This document shows, piece by piece, positions 7,111-56,235 of a stretch of 64,000 bases of DNA; position 1 is the stretch's first letter; each line of letters opens with the position of its first letter. This stretch comes from Tubulanus polymorphus (lineage: Eukaryota > Animalia > Nemertea), in assembly GCF_964204645.1 (NCBI RefSeq), contig NC_134029.1, positions 14,874,950 through 14,938,949 on the forward strand. The letters run 5' to 3'. The notes beneath the pieces are model-generated. The model saw only the letters and a list, made by a program, of their open reading frames with translations, ran no database searches and had not been told where the DNA came from. Both the position numbers and the translations under genes were made by a program.

Positions 7111-9071
7111 GTAAATACTTAGTTATGGATCATCATGAGAGATCTGATGTGAGAACTAGCATTTGATTAGGGTGCAAAAACCCTTCCTTTTGATATTTCC
7201 CTTTATTTTGAACCTTCCATCTTCCACTTTGAATTACTGCTATATGCGACTAAATCAATGTATGAAGAATTTACCACATTCTTCATCATTAAGTCAATGT
7301 TAGTTCATTAGGGTTTCAGCTGATTTCGCAGCAACCTCTTGTAATTCTGTTGATTATTATTATTCCTTGTCCCCTTTCCAGCCAAAAATCTTTTATAAAA
7401 TCAAACTCCTCTCAGATTTGACTACTAACAGCTTGTAAATGTAATATTCAATTCGGACAGATATATAACCTCCCGTTCGGTTCCTGAACTTTGCTGAAAA
7501 AAATGAAATGCTGAAAAAAAAAACGCTGAAATTTGAGAGAATTCCCGAAAAACGCATTGATTTAGTCTCAACCTAAGTTTCGGTTATTGAATTGGTTATT
7601 GTTATTACTTTCGGGCCGGTGTCCGCTGCCGAGTCGTGAACCGTGCTTTAGTCTCGACCTAAGTTTCGGTTATTGAATGGGTTATGTAGATATATGGCTA
7701 CAAGGTCGTCGTCTTCGGCTCCGTTCAACATGTTCAACTTTTGATGGCGTCAGACCAGAATTAGGTAAGTAGCTCGAACATGCGTATGGCTGGGACCCCA
7801 AAAATAGTACCTAGAGTGAAGAAGAGGTCCCCCATAAATATCGCCATAATTCTGCAAATGGGATAGGTACCAAATTTCGGTTATATGTATGAAATCCATT
7901 GGGCCTGAGAGACAGATTGATGATGAAATAAGGGATTTCCCCGACTTTTTTGCTTGGACTAAGGGAACCCATCACAGTGGGGGATTCCCCTCGATATTCG
8001 GCTCGGATATACTGGCATCCCTGTACTGGGATACCTTTCCTTTCTAAGGTTTGGTTATTTCAAAAGTTAGGTTGGGTATGTGGGGCAAATACCACTGCAA
8101 AATGCGTAGCTAAGATGCTGCCCTATGAGCCCTAAGCAGGATTTCCCCTAAATTTACGTGCTTATATATATGAACTAAACTCTCGAATTTCTTGTTTTAA
8201 CTATAGGATATAGAAGATTTTGAGAATAGTGGTCTGAGCTCTGACTGATTCATGGATGACCTAATTTCCTTGACAAGAGTCAGAAACTTCAGTTGAAGTC
8301 TTCAGTCTGGAGGAACAATTTTTCAGGACACACTGTATAACATGATTCTTGCTAGCCGAAAACTAGGTCATCAAAACTACATCAGTTTATCAGTTCCCAA
8401 AACTACCATCATGCTTCCCTGAAATGGAAAATTAAATAGATAATATTTTTCTTCATTTATTTACATTTTATTTGTCTGTACATCATGATGTATAATGTTG
8501 TTATTGTTTTATGTGCATGTACCGTTATGAGCTAAAAATGAATTTATCACTTCGTTTGAATAAATTGTTAATCACACTATGGTCGCCCGAATCGATATTA
8601 CTAAACCATTAATTTTCTAAACTGACATCATTCTTTCTTTTATTGCCTTTTCTACAAAACATATATTATAAGGCACATTCACACTACAGATTTAACATTT
8701 AAGTTGAAGTACAAAGGATAGTACAAGCTAATATATATTTATTATGTATTATATAAGTTACTCACAGGGGTCAGTTTCATGAAAATATGCAGCTTATTTC
8801 TTGTATCGGGAACCATGATCCAAAGCCAAGTTATGAATGCCGGAATTCACAGAGGGACGTGTACGTGCCAAAAACATGCAACAAAATAATCTATAACTGA
8901 ACCGACGAAAATCAAATGAACTAGATTTGATTGAAAATAATCCATCTACATGTATAAACTCAACACACACCAATTCTTAATATTTTTTTTTCATGGTAAT
9001 TCCTTGCAACTTACCATTCCAACTTTTAATGCAAGTAGTAGTTGAATGAAAATACAGTAAGGCTGAACCTG

Positions 9072-9412
9072 AGTAATTAGAAGATGGCGTTTTCAGATCA
9101 GAGGTCGAGAGGTCGAGACACCACTCATCACAGCTAGGCTCTAGTGAGAACGGACGATTGCTCTGTGACACACATATACAGTGAGTGCGCGTAACAACAA
9201 CTGCGCGTGGATAGATCGATACAGTGAGTCTCTACTGAGAACGGTTATTAACGCGTGTGCTGTTACTGTAGTACAGTGATTGCGTGTCAACTGTGCCCAG
9301 ATAAATAGATGCTGTGAGGCTTGGGTGAGAACGGTTAATAGCGTGTTTGTTATATACAGGGGGAAGTAATCCCCACTCATCACCACAAGTAATTTTTTTT
9401 CCTTATAAATGG
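9072..9412 (+). repeat. Left terminal inverted repeat of Polinton
   Basis: Reverse complement of 25595-25935; about two mismatches seen by eye; ends just past the PolB ATG. Confidence 0.95.
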
Positions 9413-12400
9413 AAGAGAATAAGACAGAACAAATTGATGTTAATGAAAATCAATATCATTGTCCATATTGTAAAAAATACATTGATAAATCTCAAAAATC
9501 GCGTCATGAAAAGTCTTCAAATCATATAAAAAATGTAATAGATTTTGAAACTCCAGAAAATTCCAATGAAAGAAAAGAACGATTAGAAAATATGAATGTG
9601 GATGAAATAAAATGTGAAGTTTGTAATGAATTTATAGTAAAAAGGAATTATAATAGACATCTCGAATCACAAAAACACCATCAAAATTTAAGTAATAATG
9701 TTTTAGGAAAAGATTATTTCGATGATAAACCTCAAAAAGTAAAAAAACCAACTTCAAAAACTAAATCCATTTCAAATAAACCTTACATGGAAAATGTTAG
9801 AAATTATATTGATTCACTAGAAATAAAAGATACAATTGAAATTTTAGAAACATTACATAGTAAAATTGGTCCTGCGGCTATTATATTTAGATTCTTTAAA
9901 GGTACAACAATAGAAGATTATAGTAAATTTAATGAAATAATAGAAAAAATACTAGATTTGATAACAGATGTTGAATATCCAAAAATTAGTATCTCTGGGA
10001 AAGTAAGTTTTATAAAGTCAGAAGAAAAAATGAATTATAATATTCAAACACACTCTGAAGAAATAATTTCAAAAACACAAATAAAAGAGAAGTTAGAAAA
10101 AATATTTAATGGATTTAAACGTCATATTGAAGAAAGATATTTTGAGGGTTCTGGCTTAACATTGAATGAAATTATATATTTAGATTTAAATGTTTACAAT
10201 ACAAAAAGAAATAAAACATCAAAAAGTAAAACAATGTTTAAAAATGATTCAAACTTTACAACAAAAAAGGATATTAAAGCATCATCTTATATTAAATTAC
10301 CAATTACGACAAAAGCAGTAATAAATATTCAAAATGAAGATAATAAATGTTTTCTATGGTCAATTATTAGTTGCTTACATCCAACACAGGAAAATGTTTG
10401 TAGAATAACAGATTATCAGAAATATGAAACATTATATAAAATTGATCAATATCCAGTAACTATAAAAATGATACCCAAAATAGAAAAAATTAATAAGTTA
10501 AAAATAAATGTATTCGAATTAATGCAATTACCAAAGACTAAAGGTGAAAATATTAAAGATTATACATTGGAAGCTTTATATTTAACAGAATATTATGATG
10601 ATGAAAATGCTATAGATTTGTTATATTACAAAAAAGATGAAAATGAACATTATATGTGGTTAAAACAAATTGATTTATTCTTTAGAACAGAAAGTGATTT
10701 TAACAGCCATAAAATTTATCTATGTAGAAAATGTTTATCTAAATTTAGAACTGAGAATGCGTTACTAAAACAAAGAATTATGTGATAATAAAGATTTTTG
10801 TAAATTAATAATGCCAACAAAAAAAGATTGTAAGTTGAAATTTACTAATCATAAATTTAAGAATATTGTTCCATTTGTAATTTATGGGGATTTTGAATCA
10901 TTGAATAAAGAATTAACCGATCAAGATAGAAAAGAAATATATAATAAAAAGCAATTATTAAAATCAATGGATAAAGGAAGTGAATTAAATGAAGATATAA
11001 TTCAAGACCCACCAATTATAAATACAATTAAAAAAGTTCATCAAAGAGCTGCTGCTTATGGAATTTATATAAAATCAAATTATCCTGAATTATATGAAAG
11101 TCAATATATTTCTTTTAGAGGTGAAAATGTAGTTAATGATTTTTGTGACAAAATGATTGAATTAGAAAGTGATTTTGCAAAATTATTAAACAAAAATAAA
11201 AGAATAGTTATGACAAAAGAAGATGAAATTGATTTTAATTATGCAACTCATTGTTGTTATTGTGAAAAACGTTTTTATTCATTTGATAAAAAAGTTAGAG
11301 ATCATGATCATTTAAATTCAAAATATCGTGGAGCTGCTCATGAAGATTGCAATTTACAAGCTAAGAAAGTTAATTTCGTACCAATATTATTTCATAATTT
11401 ATCTGGATATGATACCCATCTATTTATAAAACAATTATCGGGAAAATTGGGTGCAATTAATCAAGAAATAGAAGAATATAATGCTATGAATGAAGCAAAT
11501 GTAAGAAAATATGATTTTAAACTATTAGCTAAAACATCTGAAAATTATATTTCATTTCTATTTGGTTGCATTAGATTTTTAGATTCTTATAGATTTCTAG
11601 CAAGTTCATTAGATAATTTATCAAAAAGTTTGGTTGAAAATGATTTTGTTATAACTCGATATTATTATCCAAATGAACAAGATTTTAAATTATTGAGATA
11701 TAAAGGCGCAATTCCTTATTCATTTTATAAAACACATGATGATTTTAATGTAACAGAATTATTAAAAGATCAATTTTATGATCAATTAAAAGAGGAGTAT
11801 GTGAAAGACGAAGTGTTTAATAGAACATTAAATATTTGGAACCATTTTAAGATGAAAAAATCATGGCGAATTAGTTGATTTATATTTAAAATCAGATGTT
11901 ATGATATTGGCTGACATATTTGAAAAATTTAGAGAAGTTAATTTGAATCATTTTAATGTTGATCCTTGTAATTGCTACTCTAGTCCTGGTTTAACCTGGC
12001 AATGTGGTTTAAAATATACAAATGTAGAATTAGATTTATTAAAAGAACCAGATATGGTTTTATTATTTGAAAAATCAATTAGAGGTGGAATTAGTGGTGT
12101 TATGGGAGATAGGTATTTTAAAGCAAATGATGAATATAAATTATTATATATTGACGCCAATAAGTTATATGGTTGGGCAATGATGCAACCTCAACCATAT
12201 AAAAATTTTATATTAACAGAAGTTGAAAATGGTGATAAAACTGATTGGGAAAGCGCAATTGCGAGTTTAAAAGATGAAGCACCAATTGGTTATTTCTTTG
12301 TAGTTGATTTAGAATATCCTGAAAATATAAAGTTTAAAACAAGAAACTTTCCTTATTGCCCAGAACATTTAACTGTAGATGATAGTTATTTAAGTGAATA

Positions 12401-14468
12401 CCAGAAGAAAATAAAACCGAAAGATCATGTTTTTACAGAAAAATTAATACTTACTCAAAATAATAAATACAATTATATCGTTCATTATAGAATGTTAAAA
12501 TTTTATCTAAAACAAGGAATGAAATTAAAGAAAGTACATAGATATATTGAATTTAATCAATCGAAGTGGTTAGAAAAATATATAGATTTCAATACTCAAC
12601 AGAGAACCATATCAAAAACAGATTTTGAAAAAGATTTCTTCAAATTAATGAATAATAGTTCTTATGGTAAAACATGTGAAAATATTAGAAATAGAAATGA
12701 TATTGAATTAGTCAATAATTCTGAAAGATTAAGACATTTACAATCAAGTCCTAGACATTTAGGAAATAAAAGATTTGAAGATTATTTAACAGCAGTTAAA
12801 TTAAAAAGAACATCAATGAAATTTAATAAACCTATATTTATTGGTTCGACTGTTTTAGAAGTATCAAAATTATTAATGTATGATTTTTATTATAATGTTT
12901 TACAACCACTTTTTGGGGAAAAGCATATTAAAATATTATATTTTGATTCTGTAACAGCTGACACCCCAATATTATTAAAATGTAATGATAAAATATTGAT
13001 AAGAAGAATTTCAGAAATAATTCCAAAACAAAATGAATGTTATATTTCATATGGAGAAAAAGAATTAATACAAATAAATGGTTTAATGGATGTTTGGACA
13101 AGAAATGGATGGAAAAAATTAAAGAATATTATTAGACATAAAACAAATAAAAAAATCTATAGAGTTAGAACTAAATTAGGATTTGTAGATGTTACAGAAG
13201 ATCATAGTTTAATTAAACGAAATGGCGATGAAATAAAACCAACTGATATAAAAATTGGAGAAGAATTATTGCATAAAAGATTTTTCCAAAGAATGAATCA
13301 TATGTCATTTGATGAAATTATTGATAATATTTATAATATAGAACCCGAAACATTAGAAGAAAAAGAATATTTTATCAAAGGATTTTTCATGGGTGATGGT
13401 TCAGCAGGTGTGTATAATTATGTTTGGGGTAATAAATATTGTTGGTATTTATGCAATCAAGACTTAAAATTATTAGAAAGAATTAAGAAATTCTGTGAAG
13501 AAGTTTATCCAAATAAAACATTTAGAATCATGGATGTTATGAAATCATCAGCAGTTAATAGAATACTTGTAAATAATCCTAAAGATTTTGCTATAAAATA
13601 TAATAATGAATTCTATATTCATGCAATAGTGAAAAGTAATACTTCAACAAAAGAAAAGATAGTTCCAGATTATGTATTAAATGCAAAAAATAATTTAAGA
13701 AAATGGTTCTTCATTGGATTCTATGCAGCAAATGGTGCTAAAAAATTTACAAAAGATAAAAAGATTACCTTTGCACAGAAAGGAAAAGTTGCTATATCAG
13801 GGTTAAATATATTATGTAATTCATTAGGCTTCAATATGAATATTGGATTGATTAAATCTAAACCAAATTGCTTTAATCTAAGCCACACAGAAAAAGATTT
13901 AACTGAAGAGGTTAAAGATTTATTTGAAATATATAACCCATCAGATTATGTTTATGATTTATCAACTGAAGATGGTACATTTAACTGTGGATTTCCATTA
14001 ATTTGCTTCAATACGGATGCGTATATACTAAAAATCAAGACAAATGATATAACAAAAGACTTAAAAACATTAAAACATCATTTTGATTTTAGCAATTATC
14101 CCAAAGATCATGAACTATTTAGCAATGATAATAAAAAGATTCCTGGTAAGTTTAAAGATGAATTAGGGGGTGATGAAATGATTGAATTTGTTGGGATAAG
14201 AAGTAAAATGTATAGTTACAGAACAAAAGATCATGAAGCTAAAAAGTTAAAAGGAATAACAAAACATGTGGTTGATAAACATATAGAATTTCAAGATTAT
14301 ATAAAGTGTTTATATAAATCAATTGTAATGAAACACAAAATGAATTGTTTAAGATCAGAAGATCACGAGATGTACATTAATGAAGTTGAAAAAACTAGTT
14401 TGAATCCATTTGATGATAAAAGGCATATTTTAGATGATGGTATAAAAACATTACCTTATGGCCATTAA
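9409..14468 (+). pseudogene. polB: Protein-primed family B DNA polymerase with N-terminal C2H2 fingers, EndoVII-like insertion and intein; two frameshifts (~10770, ~11858)
   Basis: Three consecutive ORFs join: INIQNEDNKCFLWSI, ExoI YGDFES, RDHDHLNSKYRGAAHEDCN, ExoII FHNLSGYD, ExoIII YLKSDV, motif A DANKLYGWAM, motif B KLMNNSSYGKT, motif C YFD|TDA, GKFKDE, SKMY, KLKG, C-terminal DDKR...TLPYGH. Confidence 0.95.
12948..14012 (+). mobile_element. Intein (355 aa) with LAGLIDADG homing endonuclease inside PolB motif C
   Basis: Block A SVTADTPILL, block B VDVTEDHSLI, LAGLIDADG-like FIKGFFMGDGS and FFIGFYAANGA, block F VYDLSTEDGTFNCG, block G LICFN followed by Thr; excision restores LYFDTDAYI. Confidence 0.93.
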
Positions 14469-15781
14469 AACATAAAATCAATATCATCATACTCGAAATC
14501 ACTATTGGCTTCTTCATTTTCATTTAATTGTTCAGGTTCTTCTTCCATTCCATTTTTCTCATTTAAATAAAGTTCTATCTTGTTCCACATTTCATCTCGC
14601 TCTCTTTGTTTCTTTTTGTTTGTTAATTCGTCAAATGGAATTATAATATCTAGGTTTAAATAATTTACAATCTTATTTAAAAAGAATTCATAATTTATTG
14701 AATCTGTTATTCTATTTTCCAAATGATACATTAATATTTGTTTGAATATTTTTTTTATATTTTCCATATCTTCTTCTGTTAATTTAGGTTTTTCATAATA
14801 ATCGTTAAATAATAAATATAAATACATTTTCTTTTCTTTTGTGTTAAATGTTGGCGGAATAATTGTTTTTATAATATCTTTTTTAGTTATTTCACCATTT
14901 TCATTTTCTATTATTTTCATTTTTTCAAGCCATTGCATATATTCTGGTGTATGATCTTCCATAGAAAATATTTTAAAAATTTCATCTAGATAATTCAATT
15001 TTGGATCTATGAGAAAATCTCTAGTTTTTTCTTCACCCAATAAATTCTTTTGCCATCCACATTCATTCCAAAATATCACAGGACCTTCTTGTCTTAAGTA
15101 CTCATAAATACATTGTGGGCATTTTTTTCTATCATAGCTTGGTGATAGATCTTCATTAAGCTCTTGGTATTTTCTTACGTTTTCTTTATGTTTTATTGTT
15201 CTATTATGTAGATTTGAATTACTTGTTGTAATAATCAATTTACAATATTTACAATAATATGTTTTTCTTGTTAATTCATTATATTGTTTTTCTAACTTTT
15301 CAACTGTTTCTTCATTATCTGGTAACGTTTTCTCATAATTTATTTTTTCTAATAAATTATTTTTTCTTTCATTAAATTCAGTTTCAAATTAATAATAAAT
15401 TTTATCTATATGTACTTCACGAAATTGATGATTCTCCGAATCTTCTATATTTTCAGGGCTATATTTTATTCGACAAGGCTCGCAGAAATGATCTTTTATC
15501 TAATCCTTATCATAGAATAAGAAAGGTCTTTTCCAAATAACTTCAGGTTCAACTTCAGCAGAATTACTATTACTTTCATTACTATCAACATTAGCCGTTG
15601 CGCCGTTAATTCTACACTTCTCTGAATGTTTTTTAACATAATTTCTTGAGAATAATTTATTACATTTTGGGCAGTTTATTTTAGGGGGTTTATAATTTTC
15701 ATCATGTTTTTTCATATGTCGTGCCATATTACTTTTTCTTAGAAGTTCACCACAAATTTCGCATGCTATCTTCTCATCCAT
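14465..15781 (-). pseudogene. Multi zinc-finger protein (~438 codons, two in-frame stops)
   Basis: ORFs 15500-15781 and 14465-15238 are in one frame; the gap reads IKDHFCEPCRIKY...YYCKYCKLIITTSNSNLHNRTIKH; N-terminal CEICGELLRKSNMARHMKKH and CPKC...H...C; acidic C-terminus. Confidence 0.7.
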
Positions 15782-15845
15782 TTATTTAGGAAAATTTTAT
15801 TAAAATTAATTTTTAGTGATGAGCGGTAATTTTTTTATGTTATAA

Positions 15846-16607
15846 ATAGTGGTAGAATTAAAAGAATACAGAATATTTGTTGATTCTAGAAAACTTACAA
15901 ATTATAAATCAGATAATTTACTAGTACAATTAGATAGAGAATTTAAGAATTGTGTAGATTTAAAATTAGTTAATATAAGTTTATGTAACTCATTTTACAA
16001 TATATCGGATAAAAGTCTAGAACATTTAATTTTTTCAATCTTTTACAATAAAAGGAATAAATGTTTTTTTATATATTTAAAACCAGGATTATATAATTTA
16101 GATACATTAACACAAGAAATTAATAGAAAAGCTCGAGCTAAATTAGGAAGTGATTCCGGATTTAGTATTAGAATTTTAAAAAGTGATAGTTCTAATAAAA
16201 TAAAGATTAGGTTAGCTAATGACGAACAATTTAAATTTACAGTAAGAAAACCTTTAGGTAAACTGTTAGGAATTAACCCAGATATTGTTACAGCATACGC
16301 AGAAGGTAGATCAAACTTAATACCTTTTACACATTTTTATATTTATTGCAATTTGATTGACCCAACAAAAACATTTGAAGCAACTAAAGATACAATTTGT
16401 AATTCTGGTTTATTAAATATTTTACCATTAAAAAATGTCAAACAATTTGGAACTCAAATAAATTATAATTTAACTGAATGTGATTTCAAACCTTGTATTC
16501 CACATTTCAATAATTTTAAATTAGAAATAAGAAATCATAATGGATATTTAATTGATTTGTATAACTTTCCTGTAATTTATGAATTAGTTATAAGATGTAA
16601 AGAGTAA
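15846..16607 (+). CDS. Putative minor capsid protein (penton); start codon appears mutated (ATA)
   Basis: IFVDSR N-terminus, PGLYN, YIYCNLID, C-terminal FKLEIRNHNGYLIDLYNFPVIYELVI pattern typical of Polinton single jelly-roll proteins; TAAATA where TAAATG is expected. Confidence 0.75.
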   Translation: MVVELKEYRIFVDSRKLTNYKSDNLLVQLDREFKNCVDLKLVNISLCNSFYNISDKSLEHLIFSIFYNKRNKCFFIYLKPGLYNLDTLTQEINRKARAKLGSDSGFSIRILKSDSSNKIKIRLANDEQFKFTVRKPLGKLLGINPDIVTAYAEGRSNLIPFTHFYIYCNLIDPTKTFEATKDTICNSGLLNILPLKNVKQFGTQINYNLTECDFKPCIPHFNNFKLEIRNHNGYLIDLYNFPVIYELVIRCKE

Positions 16608-16623
16608 TTTTTTCATTATATAA

Positions 16624-16980
16624 ATGAATATAACTGTTGGACCGAGTATATGTTTTGGGTTTGATTTTAAACGTGAGAAAGAAATGAAATTTAATATGAA
16701 TGATGTAATTACACATATCAAAAATATTGCATTTTCTAATGAAACAACATTTGAGTATGAAACAACAATAGATAAAGAAACTTTAAATGTAGAAAAGATT
16801 ACTAATTTAATTAGAGAATCTTTAAGATTTTATGAATTAGATGAAGATTTTATCATCGATGATATTAAAAAAGTAATAATTGAAATATATGATAATCATA
16901 AAACTAGTAATGAAATAAATGTTGAATTAATCATAAATAAGTTAACTAAATATTTTGAAGATAGTAATTTTTTTGATTAA
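16624..16980 (+). CDS. Polinton hypothetical protein, 118 aa
   Basis: Intact ORF preceded by the shared AATTTTTT...TAAATG motif. Confidence 0.7.
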   Translation: MNITVGPSICFGFDFKREKEMKFNMNDVITHIKNIAFSNETTFEYETTIDKETLNVEKITNLIRESLRFYELDEDFIIDDIKKVIIEIYDNHKTSNEINVELIINKLTKYFEDSNFFD

Positions 16981-16983
16981 TAA

Positions 16984-17181
16984 ATTAGTGATAATAAGTG
17001 GATAATAACTGGATTATATAATGGAGCATTACTATCAGTTGGAACTGTTGGTTATTCAATGGTATTAAAAAAAGTATTCAAAATGGGAAGTGTTAATGTT
17101 GATAGATTAACATTAGCAGTTACTTTATCTAATTTAACTATTGATTATTTAGAAACACAGAAATATATTCCTCCCATATAA
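16984..17181 (+). pseudogene. Small hydrophobic Polinton protein (65 codons, start mutated to ATT)
   Basis: Open frame (M)SDNKWIITGLYNGALLSVGTVGYSMVLKKVFKMG...IDYLETQKYIPPI* directly after motif AGTAATTTTTTTGATTAATAAATT; absent from ORF track. Confidence 0.65.
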
Positions 17182-17205
17182 ATACATAATTTTTTTGCTA
17201 AATAA

Positions 17206-17628
17206 ATGGCTTCTGCAATTATAACTATTATAGGATCTGCAATTGTTAACGCTTTGGCATTTACTGGTGGTGGTTATTTATTTAAACATATTGATAAAAA
17301 TAGTTCATTAGGAGAACAAAGAAGACATAACTTAGCGTTAGAGAAATATAATAAAGCTGCAGAAGAATATAGAGAAAAGAGGCAAAACTATATGGATTAC
17401 ATCAATAAAGAATTATATGATCAGAAGATTTCACATAGAGATTTTCAATCAGTTGATGATGCAATGAGTTTATATAACGCGGTAACCAATAAAGAAAAAT
17501 TACATCTATACAAACCTAAATTATCAGATTATTATACCCCGAGTAAAGAACAACAGAAATATGAAATAATATGGATTTTAGGTGGAACTTTTATTGTTAT
17601 ATTTGTAGCATATAAATTTACTAATTAG
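17206..17628 (+). CDS. Polinton membrane-associated protein, 140 aa
   Basis: Hydrophobic Gly/Ala-rich N-terminus (GSAIVNALAFTGGGYLF), helical middle, C-terminal TM segment. Confidence 0.75.
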   Translation: MASAIITIIGSAIVNALAFTGGGYLFKHIDKNSSLGEQRRHNLALEKYNKAAEEYREKRQNYMDYINKELYDQKISHRDFQSVDDAMSLYNAVTNKEKLHLYKPKLSDYYTPSKEQQKYEIIWILGGTFIVIFVAYKFTN

Positions 17629-17648
17629 TAATTTTTTTTGCTAAATAA

Positions 17649-18083
17649 ATGGAAGATAAAGTTGATAGTATTGATATTATTCCTCATGATATAAATAAAA
17701 CTAAATTAAAAACATATTTAGAAAAAGAAATATTAGAATTTGAAAGTGACTTAAAAGTTAAAAAGAAAAAATATCTAAAAAGTAAAATTATATATTATTT
17801 GATTATAAGTGGTTCGGTTACAATTAGTTCTGTAATAACATTTCTAGCAATATTCAGTCCATTAACACCTTTAGCTATATCAATTGGTGTGTTAGGATTA
17901 AGTTCAAGTGTTTTAACCGGTATAAGTTCAAAATTAAATATAAAAAGTAATAAAGAAAAAATTAAAACTAATATAAAAGAAATTAATAAATTAAAGAACA
18001 CACTAGATTATATAATAAGTTTAAATGGCCATATAACAGTTGAAGAACAAGATAAATTATTAAAAGAATTAATAAATTATTAA
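17649..18083 (+). CDS. Polinton two-TM protein, 144 aa
   Basis: Central hydrophobic hairpin flanked by Lys-rich helices; motif-preceded ATG. Confidence 0.72.
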   Translation: MEDKVDSIDIIPHDINKTKLKTYLEKEILEFESDLKVKKKKYLKSKIIYYLIISGSVTISSVITFLAIFSPLTPLAISIGVLGLSSSVLTGISSKLNIKSNKEKIKTNIKEINKLKNTLDYIISLNGHITVEEQDKLLKELINY

Positions 18084-18099
18084 TTTTTTAATTATATAA

Positions 18100-19503
18100 A
18101 TGGTAGATAGTTTTCCAAAAGCTTTCCAATATAATAAATCAATTAAATATAATATTCCAGCAATAGATTTTAATAAAGATATTACATATAGAAATGAAGT
18201 TTTAGATTCATTAACTAATTTAGAAATTTATGTTACTGAAACTAACAATTTTAATGCAAAGATGGAAAATATATTTCATGTTTATTTAATTGATTTTAAA
18301 AAATTGAAAGATGAAAAACAATGGTTATTAAAATCTAATATGAGGTATTGGCAGAACCAATTAAATTTTGCTGTTTATTGTGCAACAACAGGTTGTGGAA
18401 TTAGTTGGAATGATCATTTGAATAATTCTAAATATAAATTAATTCAAAGTTTATTTAGATTTCATACATACTTTCAAATCAGAATAATATTAAATGAATT
18501 AGAGTGCGCTTTACCAGGATCAAGATATTTTAAAGAATTAGATAATAATATTAATTTATCTAAGTTTTATAAAATTTGCAATGAATTTAATATAGATATA
18601 AATAATTCTGATTTTAGAACAAAAATTGGAACAATAAGATCACTTCCTTGCCCTAAAAAGGTTGCAGAATATTGTGCACTTCCCATACCATCTAATAGTT
18701 TTTATAATATCTATAATAATAAATTAGGTTATGGTAAAATAGAAACTAAGGATTTAGAAACATTAAATTTCAATAAATTACCGAAATCTTATGATAATTT
18801 AAAACAATAATGGTTGGGTTTATTTTATTTTAGAAAATAGTGAAGGTTTTACTAAATCAGGTATAGAAAGAATAAATCAATCTATTAGAACTTATTTGAT
18901 TTGTATTCTAGGATCACAAGTTGAAACAAGATCACCGATAATTGGAAATTTGAATACATCATTCGATACACAAAAACAATTTAAAGTATTATTTGAAGAT
19001 TCCATACATAATGATAAAAATAGATCGATTCCAGAAAACATATAGATATCAAAATTATTTAGATAAATCACATATTAGATTAAATTATTGTATAGGCCCT
19101 AATCTATTAATTATTTCTAATGATTTAGTATTAAAGATGGGAAATATAATTGGTTATAATAATCTAATTAAAACTGCGACAATAAATAATTCATTTGGAT
19201 TAAATGATATAAATAAAAAGATTATAACTGCTCCAAAATTAATGGAAGGTGAAAAAAATAAAAAACATTCAATCAACAGAAACTAAAACTAAGAATATTA
19301 AATTGGATAATGATTCCAAAATAAAAAATTACAATACTGCAGAAAATGGTGCCGTCCGGCACCCACACGGTGATATTAAAACTGATAATATTCAACATGA
19401 TATAATTAAAACTGATAATGACAATAAATTACATGAAAATACTAAATTAGCTTTAACTTGTATAGGAATTGTTATAGGAGGAATATTATATTTTAAATTT
19501 TAA
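18100..19503 (+). pseudogene. Polinton protein of unknown function, frameshifted, C-terminal TM
   Basis: WQNQLNFAVYCATTGCG and LFRFHTYFQIRIILNEL continue via an alternate frame (GWVYFILENSEGFTKSGIERINQSIRTY...) into ORFs 18993 and 19249; only one start motif. Confidence 0.7.
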
Positions 19504-19522
19504 TTTTTTTATTATATAAATG
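19501..19522 (+). promoter_or_regulatory. Representative Polinton gene-start motif TAATTTTTTT-Nx-ATAAATG
   Basis: TAAAT(G) at every inferred gene start; a T-tract 8-20 nt upstream in most. Confidence 0.7.
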
Positions 19523-20974
19523 GATGTAGAAGGTGGAGAAGATATTGGAATGGATCCTTTTGATGAACCTGGTATAACTGATGAACAACCACCTGATTTT
19601 GATGAAACAACTTTTAATGATGGTAATGAGCCAGAATATAATAATAATTTAAATATGCCTGATTATATTAGAAATGCAGAATCACAATTAAATCCTGAAA
19701 ATTTAGACCCAGGTTTAGTAAAACAAGATTTAGATAATTTAAACAAAATAGCTAAATTAGAAGATATAATTAAAAAATCTAAACTTAACATAAATGATGA
19801 AGACGTTGGACCTTTAGTAGATAAATTAAGATTTTTAGATAATGGTAAATGTTATTATCATTTGAAAGGTGATTATTATATTGATATCACTTATAAACGT
19901 GAAAAGAAAATATTATCAGAATCAACTTTAGAAAAATTAGAACCAGATAGAATTAAAAGAATAAGTAATAGTAATGAAATAACTGATGTTACACAAAAAG
20001 AAAGAGATGATAATATAGACGTATTTAAACAAAGAATTAATGAATTATTTGAAATAATCAAAAAGAAATCAGAAACAGAAACAACTTCTGAACAGAATAT
20101 AACTTCCAAAAATAGTAAACTTAAATCAAATAAAGTTCCAATTGAAAAACTTTTACCGAATGGATTAATTGATGCAACAGATCAAGAATTAGAAGATTTA
20201 GATATATTTTCTGATAAAGCAATTAGAGAAATTATTAGTATAAGACTTGCATCTAATAAAATTGCGCATGATAAAAGTATAAGAGATTTTAAAATTAGAA
20301 CTTTAGAAAAAGAATTAACTGATAAAAATAAAGAAATAGAACAATTAAAGTCTGATTTAGATCATCAAGTAATTGATGAAATAGAATATAGGCAAAAAGA
20401 ATTACGTTTAGAAAAAGAAAAAGATGATTTAGAATATAACATAGAATTACAAAAAGAAGAAATTAAATTATTATTAAAATCATATGATTATAATATTAAT
20501 AGATTAAAAGTTATTTTTAAAGATTTGTTGATGAAACCAGATTCTGAAATATCATTGAAAGATAGAATAAAATTGTTATTTAAATTAGAAGGAATAACAA
20601 TTCTTTCAATTCTAACAGCTGTAACTATGTTATTTACAACAATTGGTTTAGCAATATCAAATGCTTTGAAATCTACACCTACTCTCAATAAACCGGATAA
20701 ACCCCCGAATGATAATAATTCTATACAAGATAAAGTTAAAGATGGTTTTAAGAAATTAGCAAAATATTTATGGGAACTATCTAAAAAATCTGCTGCAGCT
20801 TTACCTGGAGTTATTGCATCAATTGTTGGTTTTATATTGAAATCTGCTGGGAATATTCTTAACTTTGCTGCTGAACATATTATTTTATTTTTAATCACAG
20901 TTGTAAGTGCTATTATTTTTTGGTTAGTAAATATGATATCAAAAAGATATCAAGAAAAAAATAATAAAGAATAA
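19520..20974 (+). CDS. Polinton coiled-coil membrane protein, 484 aa
   Basis: Acidic N-terminus, long coiled coil, then 2-3 hydrophobic segments near the C-terminus. Confidence 0.8.
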   Translation: MDVEGGEDIGMDPFDEPGITDEQPPDFDETTFNDGNEPEYNNNLNMPDYIRNAESQLNPENLDPGLVKQDLDNLNKIAKLEDIIKKSKLNINDEDVGPLVDKLRFLDNGKCYYHLKGDYYIDITYKREKKILSESTLEKLEPDRIKRISNSNEITDVTQKERDDNIDVFKQRINELFEIIKKKSETETTSEQNITSKNSKLKSNKVPIEKLLPNGLIDATDQELEDLDIFSDKAIREIISIRLASNKIAHDKSIRDFKIRTLEKELTDKNKEIEQLKSDLDHQVIDEIEYRQKELRLEKEKDDLEYNIELQKEEIKLLLKSYDYNINRLKVIFKDLLMKPDSEISLKDRIKLLFKLEGITILSILTAVTMLFTTIGLAISNALKSTPTLNKPDKPPNDNNSIQDKVKDGFKKLAKYLWELSKKSAAALPGVIASIVGFILKSAGNILNFAAEHIILFLITVVSAIIFWLVNMISKRYQEKNNKE

Positions 20975-20998
20975 ATAATTAATTTTTTTGTTTAATAA

Positions 20999-22252
20999 AT
21001 GAGTGGGAGTTATATAAGTCCTTCTAAGATTTCTAGAATATCTAATGCTATTAAAGCAGAAAGATCACATCGTATAATTACTCATAACCCTTCAAATATT
21101 AATCTGAAATATTAATATGAAACTTTATATGTTAGAATTCCTAGATTAACACAAAATACTTTTTATGTTCCAAATAGTATTTATTTATCAGCCGATATAA
21201 AAGTAACTGGCCATGATAACAATTATGTTGTTGATAATGTTGGAAGATATTTGATTAAAAAATTAACTATAAAGATTGGTCCGGAAACAGTTTTCTCATT
21301 AGATGATTATAATTTATTTATGCATTATAAAGATTTATGGTTAACTAAAGAAAATAGAAATAATATGATATTTCAAGGCATCCAATCGGAAAACCATAAT
21401 AAATTAAGATCAGGAGCTAATGACGCAATAGTAACTCGTGCCACAGATAATTTGATTAAAAAGATTTATGGAAGCAAATATAAAATTCCATTAGATTTTG
21501 AATTGATAAATAATAATGCACCTTTATATAAATACGCAATTCAAGAAGATATTATATTTGAGATAACATTTGCTCCTGTAAATGAAATTGTATTATCTAG
21601 CGTTGTTAAAGATATGAGTTATAAATTATCGAATATATGTTTAGAATATGATACAGTAACTGATGAAAATATTTCAAGTATAATTCAAACTCAATACAAT
21701 CAAGGATTTTCATTATTATATGATTATATTGATAAATTTAAAACTGTAACTATTATTGCAATGATGAAATAATTAATGAGAATATTAACTTCCCAAGAAG
21801 ATCTATTAAAGGTATATTAATATTTTTTACTATTGCAACATTCTAATGGTGCAATAAAGGTAGATAATTATTATAATCCTGAAATAACAAAAGTAGAAAT
21901 AACTATCGAAGGAATAGCAAATAAAATATTTTGCCAAGGAATGAGAATGATAGATCAGTGGCCAGAAATTAGAAAACATTTTATGAATGAAAAAGTAAAA
22001 TCATTTGAAAATTGTAATATTAATCAAATTGATTATTATACCGGCAATAAATATGCATTATGGTTAGATTTTAGAACAACAGAGGATAATTCATTACATG
22101 GTTCTGGAAAAAAACTACAGAACACTAAAGATGGAATACAATTATTCATGAAAAAGAAAAAAGGAAGCTTAAATTTTAAAATGCATATTTATATTATATC
22201 TGACGCGCAATTAAATATTGTAAATTCACAATTAGATAGTATTCAATATTAG
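20999..22252 (+). pseudogene. Major capsid protein (double jelly-roll, hexon-like), disrupted
   Basis: MSGSYISP...ITHNPSNI, LYVRIPRL, NVGRYLIKKLTIKI, NICLEYD, NINFPRRSIKGILI, YNPEITKVEITIEG, YALWLDFRT, DAQLNI; stop at 21113 inside a 13-bp duplication, plus frameshifts ~21760 and ~21833. Family assignment from recalled Polinton MCP pattern, size and position. Confidence 0.8.
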
Positions 22253-22282
22253 AAATATAAAGTTAAAATTAAGGATATATAA

Positions 22283-23410
22283 ATGGGTGGTAAAAAAACT
22301 CCTAATACTAAAGAACAATATTTAAGAAATTTATATTACAACCCTGAGAGTTCGGTTGCTTATTCTTCTACTTAAAATATATGGCGTAAAGTAAAACAAG
22401 ATAAATTAGATAAGATAATCCCACAAAATTTAGTTAAATATAAAGATATAAATGAATTTATGTTAGAACAACCAACATATACAACACATAAAAAAATTGT
22501 TAGAAAATATAAAACTCGTAAAACTATGGTAAGTTATGTAGATCAACAGTGGCAAGGAGATTTAATTGATATGAAAAATGTTAAGAAAGATAATGATGAT
22601 TATTGGTGGTTATTGAATATAATTGATATTTTTAGTCGTTTTGTATGGAGCTTCCCACTTTATAGAAAAGATGCTGTACAAACATCAAATGTTTTAAGAA
22701 AATTTCTTTCGGATGATAAACTAAAACCAGAAAAAATACAATTTGATGATGGAAAAGAGTTTGATGATTCACTTGTTCATGAACTCTTAGATAATCATAA
22801 TATTGAATATTTTTCAACAAAATCGGATAAAAAAGCAGCAGTTGTTGAACGATTTAATAGAACATTAAGAACAAGAATGTGGAAATATTTTACAGCAAAT
22901 AATACTTTAAAATGGATTGATGTTTTACCAAAATTGATAGAAGGATATAATAATTCTTATCATTCTTCTATTGGAATGAAACCTATTGATGCTAGAAAAC
23001 CTGAAAATGCTGAAATTGTTTGGAATAATTTATATGGAGCATTTCTTGTAGATGATTTTGGTGAACCTAAATTTAAAGTTGGTCAAAATGTTAGAATTTC
23101 TAAGTATAAAAAGATATTTGATAAAGGATACGATCGAAATTTTACTAGAGAAATATATAAAATAAAAAAGGTAATAACAACAAAACCATATGTCTATAAA
23201 TTAGAAGATTTAGATGGTGAAGAAGTTGATGGCTACTTTTACGAAGAAGAATTGAGTTTAACTACCGAAAATCTAGAACAAGAATATAAAATTGAAAAAG
23301 TATTAAAAACAAAAACTATTAAATAAAAAAAATATTCTTTAGTAAAATGGGTTGGATGGCCAGATAAATTCAATGAATGGATATTGTCAAGTAAAATTAA
23401 AAATATATAA
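22283..23410 (+). pseudogene. Retroviral-like (rve) integrase with C-terminal chromodomain; stops at 22373 and 23324
   Basis: QWQGDLID, IDIFSRF, QFDDGKEF, VVERFNRTL DDE core; read-through gives YKIEKVLK...YSLVKWVGWPDKFNEWI. Confidence 0.92.
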
Positions 23411-24019
23411 ATGAATAAGGAATTATTTATATTTGAACCTCATAATATGTTAATTTCTGGTGTATCAAATTGTGGAAAAACTTATTTTATGTTAAATTTA
23501 TTAGAAACTGTTTATGAAAACTATTTTGATAATATAGTATTATTTTGCCCAACATATGAATTTAATCAAACTTATGATAGAAATATTACTAGGAATAATA
23601 AATTTATTATATTAGATCCTAAAACAGTAAAAGAAAACTTAGATAATTGTATTAAAATAGCAATTGATATTTATAAAGGATCAAATACATTATTCATTAT
23701 AGATGATTGCGCAAATTTACATGATTCAAAAGTTAGAGAAAGTGAGTTATGTTATTTAGCTTTCTCCGGGAGACATTTCGGGATAACAACTTGGGTTTTA
23801 AATCAAAAATATAATTCAATTGTTAAAGACTTTAGAGAAAACATTAGATTTCTAGTTTTATTCTACAATAAAGATAGAAAATCGATGAAAAATGCACTTG
23901 AGGAAAATGATATTATTCCACATGATTTACATAATGAATATATGGATAAGTTGAAAAATATTAAAAGATCAAAATTACTATTTAGATTACAACACCCATT
24001 TAAATATGAATTTATTTAG
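23411..24019 (+). CDS. A32/FtsK-like genome packaging ATPase
   Basis: Walker A GVSNCGKT, Walker B FIIDD, GRH motif, downstream Q and REN. Confidence 0.9.
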   Translation: MNKELFIFEPHNMLISGVSNCGKTYFMLNLLETVYENYFDNIVLFCPTYEFNQTYDRNITRNNKFIILDPKTVKENLDNCIKIAIDIYKGSNTLFIIDDCANLHDSKVRESELCYLAFSGRHFGITTWVLNQKYNSIVKDFRENIRFLVLFYNKDRKSMKNALEENDIIPHDLHNEYMDKLKNIKRSKLLFRLQHPFKYEFI

Positions 24020-24184
24020 ATTCAATTAGTTTGTTAATCTAGTTGAATTCTAGTTATTGGTAGTTGTAACAAAAATCAAATAGATTTAACAATATTTTAA
24101 CTAGCTTGTTAATCTAGTTGAATTCTAGTTACATTCTAGTTGAATTCTAGTTGCAACATCACAACTAATTTTTTTGTTATATAA

Positions 24185-24790
24185 ATGGTAGGTGAAAAGA
24201 AAATAAAATCTAAAAATGGTGATGTTCCAATTGATAAAACTTTAGATGATTTAGGAATAACAGAAAACAAATTAACTCCAGATAATTGTGCTTTAAATAA
24301 TGTTACAACAAATAATAATTATGAATATTATCTTTATTGCAAACATCAATTAGAAATATTAATAGCATCTGGAAAATGTAAAAAATTTGTCGATAAAAAT
24401 TTAACTTATAATGAATTAGATACAATGAAATCAGTTGAAATTATTAGATTATTTAAGATTTATGAAGCCGCGAGAACAGCTAAAATTAAAGACGCGATAT
24501 CAGAAAATGTAGTAAAAGGTTATAGTAAATTATGTAATTATATACTACCAATTGAAGATGAAAATAGATTATATTCCGATTTAAAAAATTATTATTTAGT
24601 TATGACTGAATTAAATAAATGGATTGGATATTTATCGTTTCAATTAGGAGGATTTATGACATTATTATCAACTGGGGTTATAACATTTTCAAATATTGAA
24701 AGTAAAAATATTTCTATAATAAATGAGCGAGGTGAAAGAAGTGAAGGAATTAACTGTGAAGAAAAAACCGAGAACTCAGAAACAAATTGA
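24185..24790 (+). CDS. Polinton hypothetical protein, 201 aa
   Basis: Intact ORF with start motif; hydrophobic stretch near C-terminus. Confidence 0.72.
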   Translation: MVGEKKIKSKNGDVPIDKTLDDLGITENKLTPDNCALNNVTTNNNYEYYLYCKHQLEILIASGKCKKFVDKNLTYNELDTMKSVEIIRLFKIYEAARTAKIKDAISENVVKGYSKLCNYILPIEDENRLYSDLKNYYLVMTELNKWIGYLSFQLGGFMTLLSTGVITFSNIESKNISIINERGERSEGINCEEKTENSETN

Positions 24791-25091
24791 ATGGTCTCGG
24801 CAATTAGGAATTAAATCACAAGAATATAAAAAAGCTGAAAAAGAAAAAATAAATAATAAAAATGTTAATAAAAATGGTGAAAATATTGTTATTTCTACTC
24901 CTTCTGATAATATAATATTTGATAAATATTTATATTTTACAGTTGGATTTGTAATTGTATTCATTTTGATTGGGTGTAATTGGTATAAGAAATCAAATAA
25001 AATTCATGATATTAATAATTCTGAAACAACTGCTATCAAAAGTGAAAATAATTCTGAAATTCCAAAATTGATAATAAAAAAAATGGATTAA
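24723..25091 (+). CDS. Polinton basic single-TM protein, 122 aa
   Basis: TAAATG start, basic KKKPRTQKQ N-terminus, TM YLYFTVGFVIVFILIG. Confidence 0.7.
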   Translation: MSEVKEVKELTVKKKPRTQKQIEWSRQLGIKSQEYKKAEKEKINNKNVNKNGENIVISTPSDNIIFDKYLYFTVGFVIVFILIGCNWYKKSNKIHDINNSETTAIKSENNSEIPKLIIKKMD

Positions 25092-25272
25092 TATTTTAGA
25101 AAAAAAGCAAAAAAAAATAATTTTTTTAAATTAATTGAATATCTCACTACTTTTGTCTATCACTGTGTGGGTGCCGTTTATGGCACCATCTATGCGGAGC
25201 AATTAAATTGTCCAGATAAGTCATTTCGGATTCTAGATATTCATTATTTTTATTAATTTATTTTTTTTAAAT

Positions 25273-25598
25273 TTAATCAACAATTTCTAAATCATGATGG
25301 CCATCTTCATTTTTTCCATGATATATTATTTTAAATCCTTTTAAATCTTTTAATTCCTCTGTACTCAATGAAACCCATTTATCAGGTAAAAATACTTTAA
25401 ATTCTCGCGATGTACTAACATTACATTCGCTTAAATTAGCTGATACTTTCTCTCCATATTTAGTTTTTATCTTTTCTAATTTCAATATTTTATGTTCAAT
25501 TTCTTTTGTAACATCAACTAACTTTTTTATTTCAAATTGTTTTTTGCTGGTTTAATTCTGTTATTTATTGTTGCTAAGAATGCTTTTCTATCTCCCAT
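25273..25598 (-). pseudogene. Small protein started from the right TIR, one frameshift; possible OB-fold ssDNA-binding protein
   Basis: ATG at 25598 (minus) MGDRKAFLATINNRIKPAK; a one-base shift in an A-run joins ...KIKTKYGEKV...KVFLPDKW...KIIYHG. SSB role is inference. Confidence 0.55.
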
Positions 25599-25935
25599 TT
25601 ATAAGGAAAACAAATTACTTGTGGTGATGAGTGGGGATTACTTCCCCCTGTATATAACAAACATGCTATTAACCGTTCTCACCCAAGCCTCACAGCATCT
25701 ATTTATCTGGGCACAGTTGACACGCAATCACTGTACTACAGTAACAGCACACGCGTTAATAACCGTTCTCAGTAGAGACTCACTGTATCGATCTATCCAC
25801 GCGCAGTTGTTGTTACGCGCACTCACTGTATATGTGTGTCACAGAGCAATCGTCCGTTCTCACTAGAGCCTAGCTGTGATGAGTGGTGTCTCGACCTCTC
25901 GACCTCTGATCTGAAAACGCCATCTTCTAATTACT
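25595..25935 (-). repeat. Right terminal inverted repeat of Polinton
   Basis: Ends ...CATCTTCTAATTACT, followed by TSD AACCTG. Confidence 0.95.
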
Positions 25936-26365
25936 AACCTGATAACCCAAATTAAGTGCTAGCATCGAACTTATGATTATTTTGATTTGGTTTTCGGTGT
26001 CATTGAAATTCGTAAATAAAGGTTCAACCGTCGTAGTATACTGTACTTAGCATAGCTCTGATTGGGTGTCATATTTCTACAAGACAAGGAGGAGTGTGAA
26101 AGGGTCTTCCCCGGGTAGGGCTTAAACCTGGTTTACTTTCTATCTTAATTTGCTGGAGACAAGGTGAGTTAATATGCAGAATACCTTGCACCAAGGGTCG
26201 GTTCCTTAGCAGTTTTAAATTCCTTGTTTCGTGATGGGAACGTCGGTGGGAATCTTTACATTTGAAAGGTTGGCAGATAATGTCCTTGAAAGCCTTTAAT
26301 TGGTTTATCTTTGTCAGCAGTATGAGGTTGGCATTGAGCCAATTCATGTAAAATCGCAGTACATT

Positions 26366-56015: not shown

Positions 56016-56235
56016 TGTAAAGATTTGGGGTATCCTCAGTTTGGTACGACAAAAGAGGCCCGAAGATTCCTGTGAACCCACAAAATAATTACACAAAAGA
56101 TCTGAGTTACTAGACAATACCTCTATTCCACGATGGGCACAACAAGAAGGAAGAACAATAGAACAAAAGATCTTAGGTGGCGCACCAGTACGGTGCGCCT
56201 ACAATAATAACAATAGGACGGCTCCAGCCGTCACA
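56016..56235 (-). repeat. 3' LTR
   Basis: Direct repeat of 63155-63377; adjacent PPT. Confidence 0.9.

What the first reader, a model, noticed from the sequence alone, without database searches (positions are those of the whole stretch)
9387..25620. Every Polinton gene starts in TAAATG, usually after a T-tract: poxvirus-like signal in an element with no RNA polymerase
Seen: TAAATG at ATGs 9409, 15781(-), 16624, 17206, 17649, 18100, 19520, 20999, 22283, 23411, 24185, 24723 and 25598(-), plus TAAATA at 15846 and TAAATT at 16984; most have AATTTTTT about 8-20 nt upstream, filling ~17-25-nt intergenic gaps. Established: TAAAT(G) is the poxvirus late initiator, TTTTTNT the poxvirus early terminator, and virophages share promoter motifs with their helper viruses. 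Inference: transcription may rely on a co-infecting cytoplasmic large DNA virus (an integrated virophage-like system in an animal), which would also explain the intein.
Basis: partly seen in the sequence, partly recalled or inferred. Interest (0 to 1): 0.82.

Follow-up and report, generated by a model that had tools for sequence, protein, structure and literature searches.

The report
Polinton wired for helper-virus transcription
A virus-like transposon (Polinton), likely in an animal genome, starts all 13 genes that keep a start codon at TAAATG, most behind a fixed-distance T-run as in poxvirus late promoters, while some relatives use a swine-fever-virus-like TATA instead, so it likely borrows the RNA polymerase of a co-infecting large DNA virus.

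Summary
Observation confirmed and extended. The element is a decayed, multi-copy Polinton (9072-25935, 345-nt inverted repeats, 6-bp target duplication). All 13 ATG starts read ATAAATG (9 of 615 other ATGs do). At 10 of 15 sites a T-run ends 5-7 nt before TAAAT, the published vaccinia late-promoter layout, so the T-run is better read as promoter core than as an early terminator. [quoted passage not shown] GC content does not separate the types, and the tree needs at least two switches. AT bias, Kozak context (T at -3) and stop-start coupling (1 of 53) fail. Poly(A) signals are not avoided in coding DNA. The element also encodes a divergent VLTF3-like late transcription factor (borderline Pfam hit), and its intein belongs to a family found mostly in large-virus-type polymerases. 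The helper need not be a poxvirus: an iridovirus-like giant-virus bin shows a looser form of the signal. No RNA data were available, so the start site and helper dependence are inferred.

The parts
9066..9071 (.). 6-bp target site duplication, left copy
   Evidence: identical to 25936-25941
9072..9416 (+). left terminal inverted repeat; ends in the promoter and first codons of the polymerase gene
   Evidence: 345 nt, 99% complementary to the right arm, 3 mismatches
9390..9411 (+). promoter-like element (T-run, spacer 5, TAAATG); no gene upstream
9409..14468 (+). [quoted passage not shown]
   Evidence: aligns over its length to P0121 (PF03175), 61% in the C-terminal half
12948..14012 (+). 355-aa intein with LAGLIDADG-like domain in polymerase motif C
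   Evidence: Pfam PF14890 E=1.2e-6, below its cut-off; boundaries; 339 homologues
14465..15781 (-). zinc-finger plus VLTF3-like late transcription factor gene, one frame with two internal stops
   Evidence: PF04947 27.0-28.6 bits, cut-off 25, on 4 of 5 stretches scanned; Atlas lead 0.88
15779..15800 (-). promoter-like element (short T-run, spacer 6, TAAATG)
15827..15848 (+). promoter-like element, start codon decayed in this copy
   Evidence: orthologue in L001 starts at the canonical motif
15846..16607 (+). 253-codon frame, likely minor capsid protein (inferred from size and gene set, not tested)
   Evidence: weak DUF5901 hit E=8e-4; homologues in L001, L022, L023
16605..16626 (+). promoter-like element (spacer 7)
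16624..16980 (+). 118-aa ORF, no family
16965..16986 (+). promoter-like element, start codon decayed in this copy
   Evidence: other host copies differ from this copy here; L001 orthologue canonical
16984..17181 (+). 65-codon conserved small gene
   Evidence: homologues in L001, L022-L024
17187..17208 (+). promoter-like element (spacer 6)
17206..17628 (+). 140-aa conserved protein, no family
   Evidence: homologues in 6 loci
17630..17651 (+). promoter-like element (spacer 6)
17649..18083 (+). 144-aa two-helix membrane protein, SLATT-like (weak)
   Evidence: PF18142 E=0.004, below cut-off
18081..18102 (+). promoter-like element (spacer 7)
18100..19503 (+). conserved gene of no known family (442 aa in L001), interrupted here
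   Evidence: no Pfam, PHROG or Atlas hit; fold pLDDT 35
19501..19522 (+). promoter-like element (spacer 6)
19520..20974 (+). 484-aa coiled-coil and membrane protein
   Evidence: homologues in 10 loci
20980..21001 (+). promoter-like element (spacer 6)
20999..22252 (+). major capsid protein, interrupted
   Evidence: weak Capsid_N PF16903 E=0.003; 69% to the 415-aa L001 protein
22264..22285 (+). promoter-like element without T-run (A-rich upstream)
22283..23326 (+). retroviral-type integrase, interrupted
   Evidence: PF00665 E=3e-10
23392..23413 (+). promoter-like element without T-run (A-rich upstream)
23411..24019 (+). A32-type packaging ATPase, intact
   Evidence: PF04665 E=1.4e-13; 186 homologues
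24166..24187 (+). promoter-like element (spacer 6)
24185..24790 (+). 201-aa conserved protein, no family
24704..24725 (+). promoter-like element inside the upstream coding sequence, no long T-run
24723..25091 (+). 122-aa conserved protein with a membrane helix, no family
25273..25598 (-). small gene driven from the right repeat, interrupted
   Evidence: 72% to L001:125-466
25596..25617 (-). promoter-like element, right-repeat copy
25591..25935 (-). right terminal inverted repeat
25936..25941 (.). 6-bp target site duplication, right copy

Best explanation
Every gene start of this Polinton carries TAAATG, most behind a T-run at a fixed distance, and this signal is likely a late-type promoter read by the RNA polymerase of a co-infecting large DNA virus (Nucleocytoviricota), which would make the element an integrated virophage-like parasite in a likely animal host. 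Shown: the motif, its fixed geometry, its conservation across relatives, the lack of a detectable RNA polymerase, and an alternative TATA form in other relatives. Inferred by analogy with vaccinia: transcription starts within the AAA, the polymerase slips and adds a 5' poly(A) leader, which turns the poor T at -3 into a purine; each gene is its own transcription unit; the copy is silent in the chromosome until the helper supplies polymerase and late factors; the element's VLTF3-like protein tunes or hijacks that machinery. The TATA-type relatives would be tuned to an asfuvirus-like helper, so lineages have switched helper at least twice. The helper family is open: poxvirus-like fits best by layout, iridovirus-like is not excluded.
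For: 13/13 against 9/615. Fixed positions over 15 sites: A at -18 and -17 in 14/15, T at -14 to -11 in 13-14/15; T at -14 in 11 of 30 other TAAATG. T-run to TAAAT spacer 5-7 nt at 10 of 10 sites with a run of 5 or more T; vaccinia late promoters: T-rich core, 5-7 bp, TAAAT(G/A) (PMC5294985 passage), conserved T ten nt upstream (PMC11980589 passage). Relatives: 52 of 55 starts in 18 loci of GC 0.20-0.45 against 77 of 2120 other ATGs; 0 of 39 in 10 TATA-type loci of GC 0.20-0.49, where 31 of 39 have TATA within 22 nt against 175 of 1359. In the two GC-rich TATA loci an A/T patch lies 11-16 nt upstream of TATA (10/17 against 13/81), as in ASFV p72 (TATTT at -15 to -11, TATATA at -1 to +5) with late initiator TA(+1)TA and median 9-nt leaders (PMC7163114 passages). 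-3 is T in 52/55 TAAATG-type starts and a purine in 27/39 TATA-type starts. Ten starts are head to head, four of them with only 4 nt between the two ATGs. AATAAA is not avoided in sense coding DNA: 65 against 60.2 expected in 14 kb. VLTF3-like gene here and in TATA-type L022 (24 bits, just under cut-off). Intein family: 90 of 113 near-full-length hits lie in delta-like RNA-primed polymerases at the same site. Tree needs 2 changes; a single TATA clade is rejected, p-AU 0.002.
Against: No transcript evidence and no helper sequence tied to this host. The VLTF3 call is borderline: lost on the 307-aa stretch, no database homologue, no significant pairwise match to a giant-virus VLTF3, and small profiles from L022/L023/G001/G002 did not retrieve it. 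VLTF3 also occurs in small viruses such as mriyaviruses (passage), and chloroviruses have it while using host polymerase (recalled), so it does not prove a helper. The intein's nearest relatives are in other Polinton-type polymerases (46-63%), and the family includes 4 T4-like polymerases and 9 topoisomerases; two delta-like hosts checked score best against cellular Pol delta, none against a poxvirus enzyme; their being viral is inferred from low scores. 5 of 15 sites lack the long T-run. The family is abundant in host DNA, which chromosomal copying without a helper could also give. The TAAATG/TATA grouping was made after seeing the loci; the tree has long branches (L025, L030) and used no mixture model. 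No host-gene control for AATAAA at matched GC was available. Animal host is inferred from flanking Gypsy, piggyBac and GIY-YIG pieces and the known range of Maverick-Polintons.
Confidence: 0.7

Rival explanations
1. The motif is a promoter inherited from a large-virus ancestor but read in the nucleus by host RNA polymerase II, redirected by the element's own VLTF3-like factor, so the element is autonomous.
For: The element encodes a VLTF3-like protein; 35-45 kb mriyaviruses carry VLTF2/VLTF3; chloroviruses use host polymerase (recalled); TATAAA overlaps the motif at 8 of 13 ATG starts and host TBP targets vaccinia late promoters (title in a reference list); the family is high-copy in host DNA.
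Against: A TATA box abutting the ATG would start Pol II about 25-30 nt inside the coding sequence; head-to-head pairs leave 4 nt for leaders; -3 is T; about one AATAAA per 215 nt of sense coding DNA is tolerated.
Confidence: 0.2
2. TAAATG is a translation signal: stop-start coupling on polycistronic RNA, or a Kozak-like context, with the T-tract as terminator of the upstream gene.
For: Upstream stops often fall in or near the motif (19 of 53 within 40 nt); +4 is a purine in 52/55; a T-run without downstream start follows the last plus-strand gene (25119); ASFV terminates at poly(T).
Against: The motif's TAA is the upstream stop in 1 of 53; 10 are head to head and 23 have no upstream ORF end within 40 nt; the motif stands before the first gene in each terminal repeat; T at -3 opposes Kozak; T5NT depletion is not strand-specific (sense z -3.2, antisense z -4.1). 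A double use of the T-run as terminator is not excluded.
Confidence: 0.07
3. The motif is a by-product of AT richness.
For: Element GC about 0.23; total TAAATG count is near shuffle expectation.
Against: Positional enrichment p=1e-21; kept at GC 0.37-0.45 (L012-L014, L025) and absent at GC 0.20-0.31 (L017-L021); median GC 0.31 in both types, p=0.52; 12 of 141 ORFs in 17 other viral loci.
Confidence: 0.01

Closest known systems
Maverick-Polintons (Polintoviricetes; adintoviruses, PMC8502044; coral polintoviruses, PMC11131425)
   Same: Inverted repeats, 6-bp duplication, pPolB, rve integrase, A32 ATPase, capsid gene; VLTF3 already reported in a subgroup.
   Different: No promoter is described: the word occurs 0 times in both papers. 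No adenain protease was found here.
Vaccinia late promoter (PMC5294985, PMC11980589)
   Same: T-rich core, 5-7 nt spacer, TAAATG over the start codon.
   Different: On a 16.9-kb element with no polymerase; used by all genes including the DNA polymerase; stricter (TAA-T7 upstream, invariant A at -4); start site untested.
ASFV late promoter (PMC7163114, PMC5294985)
   Same: Sister loci L017-L027 and L033: TATA 0-16 nt before ATG, A/T patch 11-16 nt upstream in the two GC-rich loci.
   Different: Not the window's own type; no start site data.
Virophages and PLVs that share helper promoters (Gezel-14T with PgV, Mavirus with CroV, Sputnik; 10.1101/2022.07.28.501842)
   Same: No own polymerase; promoter motif of a large virus at gene starts.
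   Different: Protist hosts and mimivirus-type motifs; there the helper is known.
Entomopoxvirus-associated PLVs (PMC11296320)
   Same: Polinton-like elements proposed as hyperparasites of poxviruses in animals.
   Different: Found in occlusion bodies, carry a protease, three of four discussed lack or vary in integrase/PolB; the paper has 0 occurrences of promoter, motif, TAAAT, VLTF, intein or transcription.
Yeast cytoplasmic linear elements pGKL (PMC6211774)
   Same: Protein-primed linear DNA (recalled) with a TAAAN initiator that gives 5' poly(A) by slippage.
   Different: They encode their own RNA polymerase and capping enzyme and have no capsid genes.

Membership tests
Maverick-Polinton | terminal inverted repeats and 6-bp target duplication | tested here: met
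Maverick-Polinton | protein-primed PolB | tested here: met
   no direct PF03175 hit, but full-length alignment to P0121, which carries PF03175
Maverick-Polinton | rve integrase and A32 ATPase | tested here: met
Maverick-Polinton | double jelly-roll major and single jelly-roll minor capsid proteins | tested here: inconclusive
   weak Capsid_N and DUF5901 hits below cut-off; not folded
Maverick-Polinton group 1 | adenain-type cysteine protease | tested here: not met
   no hit; group 2 has more variable content; placement in group 2 not tested on a reference tree
Poxvirus late promoter | TAAAT(G/A) over the start codon | tested here: met
   13/13
Poxvirus late promoter | T-rich core 5-7 nt upstream, conserved T about 10 nt upstream | tested here: met
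   10 of 15 sites with a long run, all spacers 5-7; T at -13 in 13/15; peak T 0.81 at -12 in 52 starts of relatives
Poxvirus late promoter | start within AAA with non-templated 5' poly(A); loss of activity on mutation | not testable with these tools
   no RNA holder listed; only contigs
Poxvirus early terminator TTTTTNT | sense-strand-specific avoidance in genes, position tied to the upstream gene end | tested here: not met
   depleted on both strands; position tied to the downstream ATG
Virophage-like hyperparasite | no own RNA polymerase or capping enzyme | tested here: met
   six ORFs have no family, so a very divergent subunit is not excluded
Virophage-like hyperparasite | promoter shared with an identified helper of the same host | tested here: inconclusive
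   layout matches vaccinia (papers) and loosely bin G001; no helper tied to this host
Virophage-like hyperparasite | replication or expression depends on co-infection | not testable with these tools
   needs infection experiments
VLTF3 (PF04947) | zinc ribbon plus C-terminal helical domain above the family cut-off | tested here: inconclusive
   C-terminal half of the profile above cut-off in 4 of 5 scans; ribbon aligns with one cysteine missing; small profiles and fold search failed

The most novel reading that the evidence does not exclude
A widespread clade of animal Polintons are integrated virophages: their promoters record the helper, they have switched at least twice between poxvirus-type (T-run + TAAATG) and asfuvirus-type (T patch + TATA) transcription machines, they carry their own late transcription factor to hijack it, and so point to unseen pox- and asfuvirus-like viruses of invertebrates and possibly to an inducible antiviral defence in animals.
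Probability: 0.4. Interest if true: 0.92.

Novelty: new variant of a known kind. Interest (0 to 1): 0.74.

Why it matters
Whether animal Polintons are autonomous or need a helper virus is an open question (stated as open in PMC5499653; no virions observed). A 22-nt element conserved at every gene start makes it testable with a reporter and an ordinary laboratory vaccinia infection, tells which kind of virus to look for in the host, and would explain why these proviruses are silent in ordinary transcriptomes. The two promoter types give a way to assign helper type to Polintons from sequence alone.

Tried and rejected
No whole genome is held for the window. Scans of viral contigs with the ATPase, its alignment and the L001 capsid found no relative; genome contigs gave one partial hit, L034, dropped from all counts. 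No RNA holder listed; the one guessed-RNA run X5 laid 3 short partial records: no evidence either way. The profile search of representatives never ran (queue full, 10 tries), which leaves the VLTF3 call without a deep alignment. Both folds were unusable (pLDDT 42.7; 35.0) and the fold search gave nothing under E=0.1. PDB sequence search of the VLTF3-like stretch: best E=0.03. Atlas: no usable hit for the conserved 442-aa protein. Rfam: 0 matches in 8500-26500. Bacterial promoter and terminator scans at chance level (149 against 152.9; 4 against 2.5). The lead from e1-8580207 that some copies carry a poxvirus polymerase subunit: no such Pfam family among the 40 rows of unassigned ORFs scanned. 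Bin G002 shows no excess of the full two-part pattern (9 against 8) although 4 of 11 and 6 of 14 starts read TAAATG. TATA depletion inside coding DNA is seen in TATA-type loci (z -3.8, -4.7) but also in GC-richer TAAATG-type loci (z -4.5), so it is not specific. The ATPase-only tree left the backbone unresolved.
Full report
What the element is. The AT-rich block (GC about 0.23 against 0.32-0.49 in the flanks) is a Polinton of 16,864 bp, 9072-25935, bounded by 345-nt inverted repeats with 3 mismatches and a 6-bp target duplication. It holds a protein-primed polymerase with an intein, an rve integrase, an A32 ATPase, a likely major and minor capsid gene and several conserved genes of no family. 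At least seven genes are interrupted or have lost their start in this copy. Contigs of three DNA runs (two samples, one study) cover all 30 bins with thousands of records at 85-99% identity, so the family is multi-copy in the host. The flanks hold Gypsy, piggyBac and GIY-YIG pieces and a 155-bp satellite; an animal host is inferred, not shown.

The observation. All listed sites are real. 13 of 13 ATG starts read ATAAATG against 9 of 615 other ATGs (p=1.5e-21); two of the 13 are the two repeat copies. The hexamer as such is not enriched (43 against 35.4 +/- 6.3), its position is. Over the 15 sites the upstream part is fixed in place: T at -19 (12/15), A at -18 and -17 (14/15), T at -16 to -10 (11-14/15), A at -4 (15/15). 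Where a run of five or more T exists (10 of 15 sites) it ends 5-7 nt before TAAAT in all 10. The vaccinia late promoter is described as a core with T residues, 5-7 bp, then TAAAT(G/A) overlapping the start site (PMC5294985, passages), with a conserved T ten nt upstream, while intermediate promoters are A-richer upstream (PMC11980589, passages). The five sites without the long run have A-rich or short-T upstream parts and may be the intermediate-like class (inference).

Relatives. An ATPase alignment of 53 sequences found 33 metagenome loci. Genes were counted if at least 100 aa, homologous to an ORF in another locus at under 95% identity and not flagged as a fragment. Without grouping, 20 of 33 loci have TAAATG at two thirds or more of starts, 12 at none, one between; median GC is 0.31 in both (p=0.52). 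With near-duplicates L006 and L024 dropped and L016, L029, L030 set aside (2 of 6 starts), 18 loci give 52 of 55 starts against 77 of 2120 other ATGs, and 10 loci give 0 of 39; this grouping was made after seeing the loci. In those 10, 31 of 39 starts have TATA within 22 nt against 175 of 1359, 0-16 nt before the ATG; several misses have TATA before the next in-frame ATG. In the GC-rich pair L022 and L023 an A/T patch lies 11-16 nt upstream of the TATA (10/17 against 13/81, p=6e-4). ASFV late promoters have TATTT at -15 to -11 and TATATA at -1 to +5, an initiator TA(+1)TA and a median 9-nt leader (PMC7163114, passages). On an ATPase plus capsid tree of the 18 loci that have both, the label needs 2 changes and one TATA clade is rejected (p-AU 0.002), with a long-branch warning for L025 and L030 and no mixture model.

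Rivals tested. Kozak: -3 is T in 52 of 55 TAAATG-type starts but a purine in 27 of 39 TATA-type starts, as expected if the T is outside the message in the first type and a templated leader exists in the second. Stop-start coupling: the TAA is the upstream stop in 1 of 53; 10 starts are head to head, four of them with 4 nt between the ATGs. Nuclear processing: AATAAA is at expectation in sense coding DNA here (65 against 60.2 in 14 kb) and in all four groups of relatives; no matched host control was available.

Added evidence. The minus-strand gene 15781-14465, one frame with two internal stops, ends in a domain that scores 27.0-28.6 bits on Pox_VLTF3 (cut-off 25) in 4 of 5 scans; Atlas features point the same way at 0.88, a lead only. 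Against: no database homologue, no significant pairwise or small-profile match, failed fold. TATA-type L022 has a VLTF3-like ORF too (24 bits). VLTF3 in polintoviruses is already in print (PMC11131425). The 355-aa intein sits in motif C; its best relatives are in Polinton-type polymerases (46-63%), and of 113 near-full-length hits among the best 120 of 339, 90 are in delta-like RNA-primed polymerases, 9 in topoisomerases, 8 in pPolB, 4 in T4-like enzymes, 2 unclassified. This fits contact with large DNA viruses but does not point to poxviruses. Homing-endonuclease insertions in Polinton polymerases are noted in PMC11071308 (passage).

Which helper. An exact scan of viral contigs for the long form of the signal gave 19 loci; 17 look unrelated (12 of 141 starts), two are giant-virus bins. 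G001 has 35 matches to the two-part pattern against 9 for the reversed control, and 15 of 40 starts in 39 kb read TAAATG against 40 of 1216 other ATGs; part of that DNA was selected by the pattern. Its capsid matches PDB 6ojn best (E=5e-123; that this is an iridovirus capsid is recalled). G002 shows 9 against 8. So the signal is not exclusive to poxviruses.

What is in print. Ten searches: Polinton+TAAAT+promoter gave one paper, on yeast elements; Maverick+Polinton+poxvirus+promoter+dependent on+cytoplasm gave none; two searches listed protist systems and PMC11296320; one search covered inteins. I saw term passages of PMC11131425, PMC8502044, PMC5294985, PMC7163114, PMC6211774, PMC5499653, PMC11071308, PMC11980589, 10.64898/2026.10.13.758929, 10.64898/2026.06.19.733378, 10.1101/2024.03.23.586382 and 10.1101/2022.07.28.501842, and a term search plus parts 2 and 4 of 8 of PMC11296320; other papers only as listings; no supplements were opened, and subscription papers are not in the library. 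Within that, no promoter of animal Polintons is described. An unchecked AI note from another genome in this scan (e1-8580207) reached a similar reading; it is not independent support.

Verdict. A real and strong feature. Best reading (0.7): a late-type promoter for a helper large-virus polymerase; main rival (0.2): the same signal read by host Pol II with the element's own factor. New variant of a known kind; interest 0.74.

Noticed in passing
window 9121-9131, 9373-9383, 15816-15826 (-), and the right-repeat copies: An 11-nt motif CCRCTCATCAC stands upstream of the promoters of the polymerase, the right-end gene and the VLTF3-like gene; about 0.001 expected in the interior; absent from L001-L033 apart from one partial match. 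Candidate regulatory site for the replication and transcription genes.
   Followed up: partly
window 9146, 9237, 9327: The GC-richer terminal repeat holds three GAGAACGG units 90-91 nt apart and a TATA-like stretch near 9350, about 55 nt before the polymerase ATG; a host Pol II promoter for the terminal genes is possible.
   Followed up: no
L013:1429-1434, L014:1019-1024, L011:1587-1594: Integrase and ATPase genes lie head to head and share one palindromic CATTTAAATG or CATTTATAAATG.
   Followed up: partly
L023:2448-2858: A TATA-type relative carries a Bcl-2 family gene (E=2e-18).
   Followed up: no
L001:10343-10981 (-): The nearest relative carries a deoxynucleoside kinase (E=2e-31), also starting at the motif.
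   Followed up: no
P0122, P0126: Intein-bearing Polinton-type polymerases in clusters of 136 and 121 members; the first on contigs up to 1 Mb, many full length: the intein is fixed in other multi-copy families.
   Followed up: no
window 24020-24165; L022:3824 onward; L023 after 5367: An 11-nt tandem repeat after the ATPase gene; similar short arrays follow the neighbouring gene in TATA-type loci.
   Followed up: no
window 25104-25127: T-runs on both strands at the convergent junction of the last two genes, without a downstream start; possible terminators.
   Followed up: no
window 53383-62020 (-), 32408-32755, 38685-39080, 8-576 and 26980-27582: Two decayed Gypsy elements, a piggyBac piece, a GIY-YIG piece and a 154-156 bp satellite in the flanks.
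   Followed up: no
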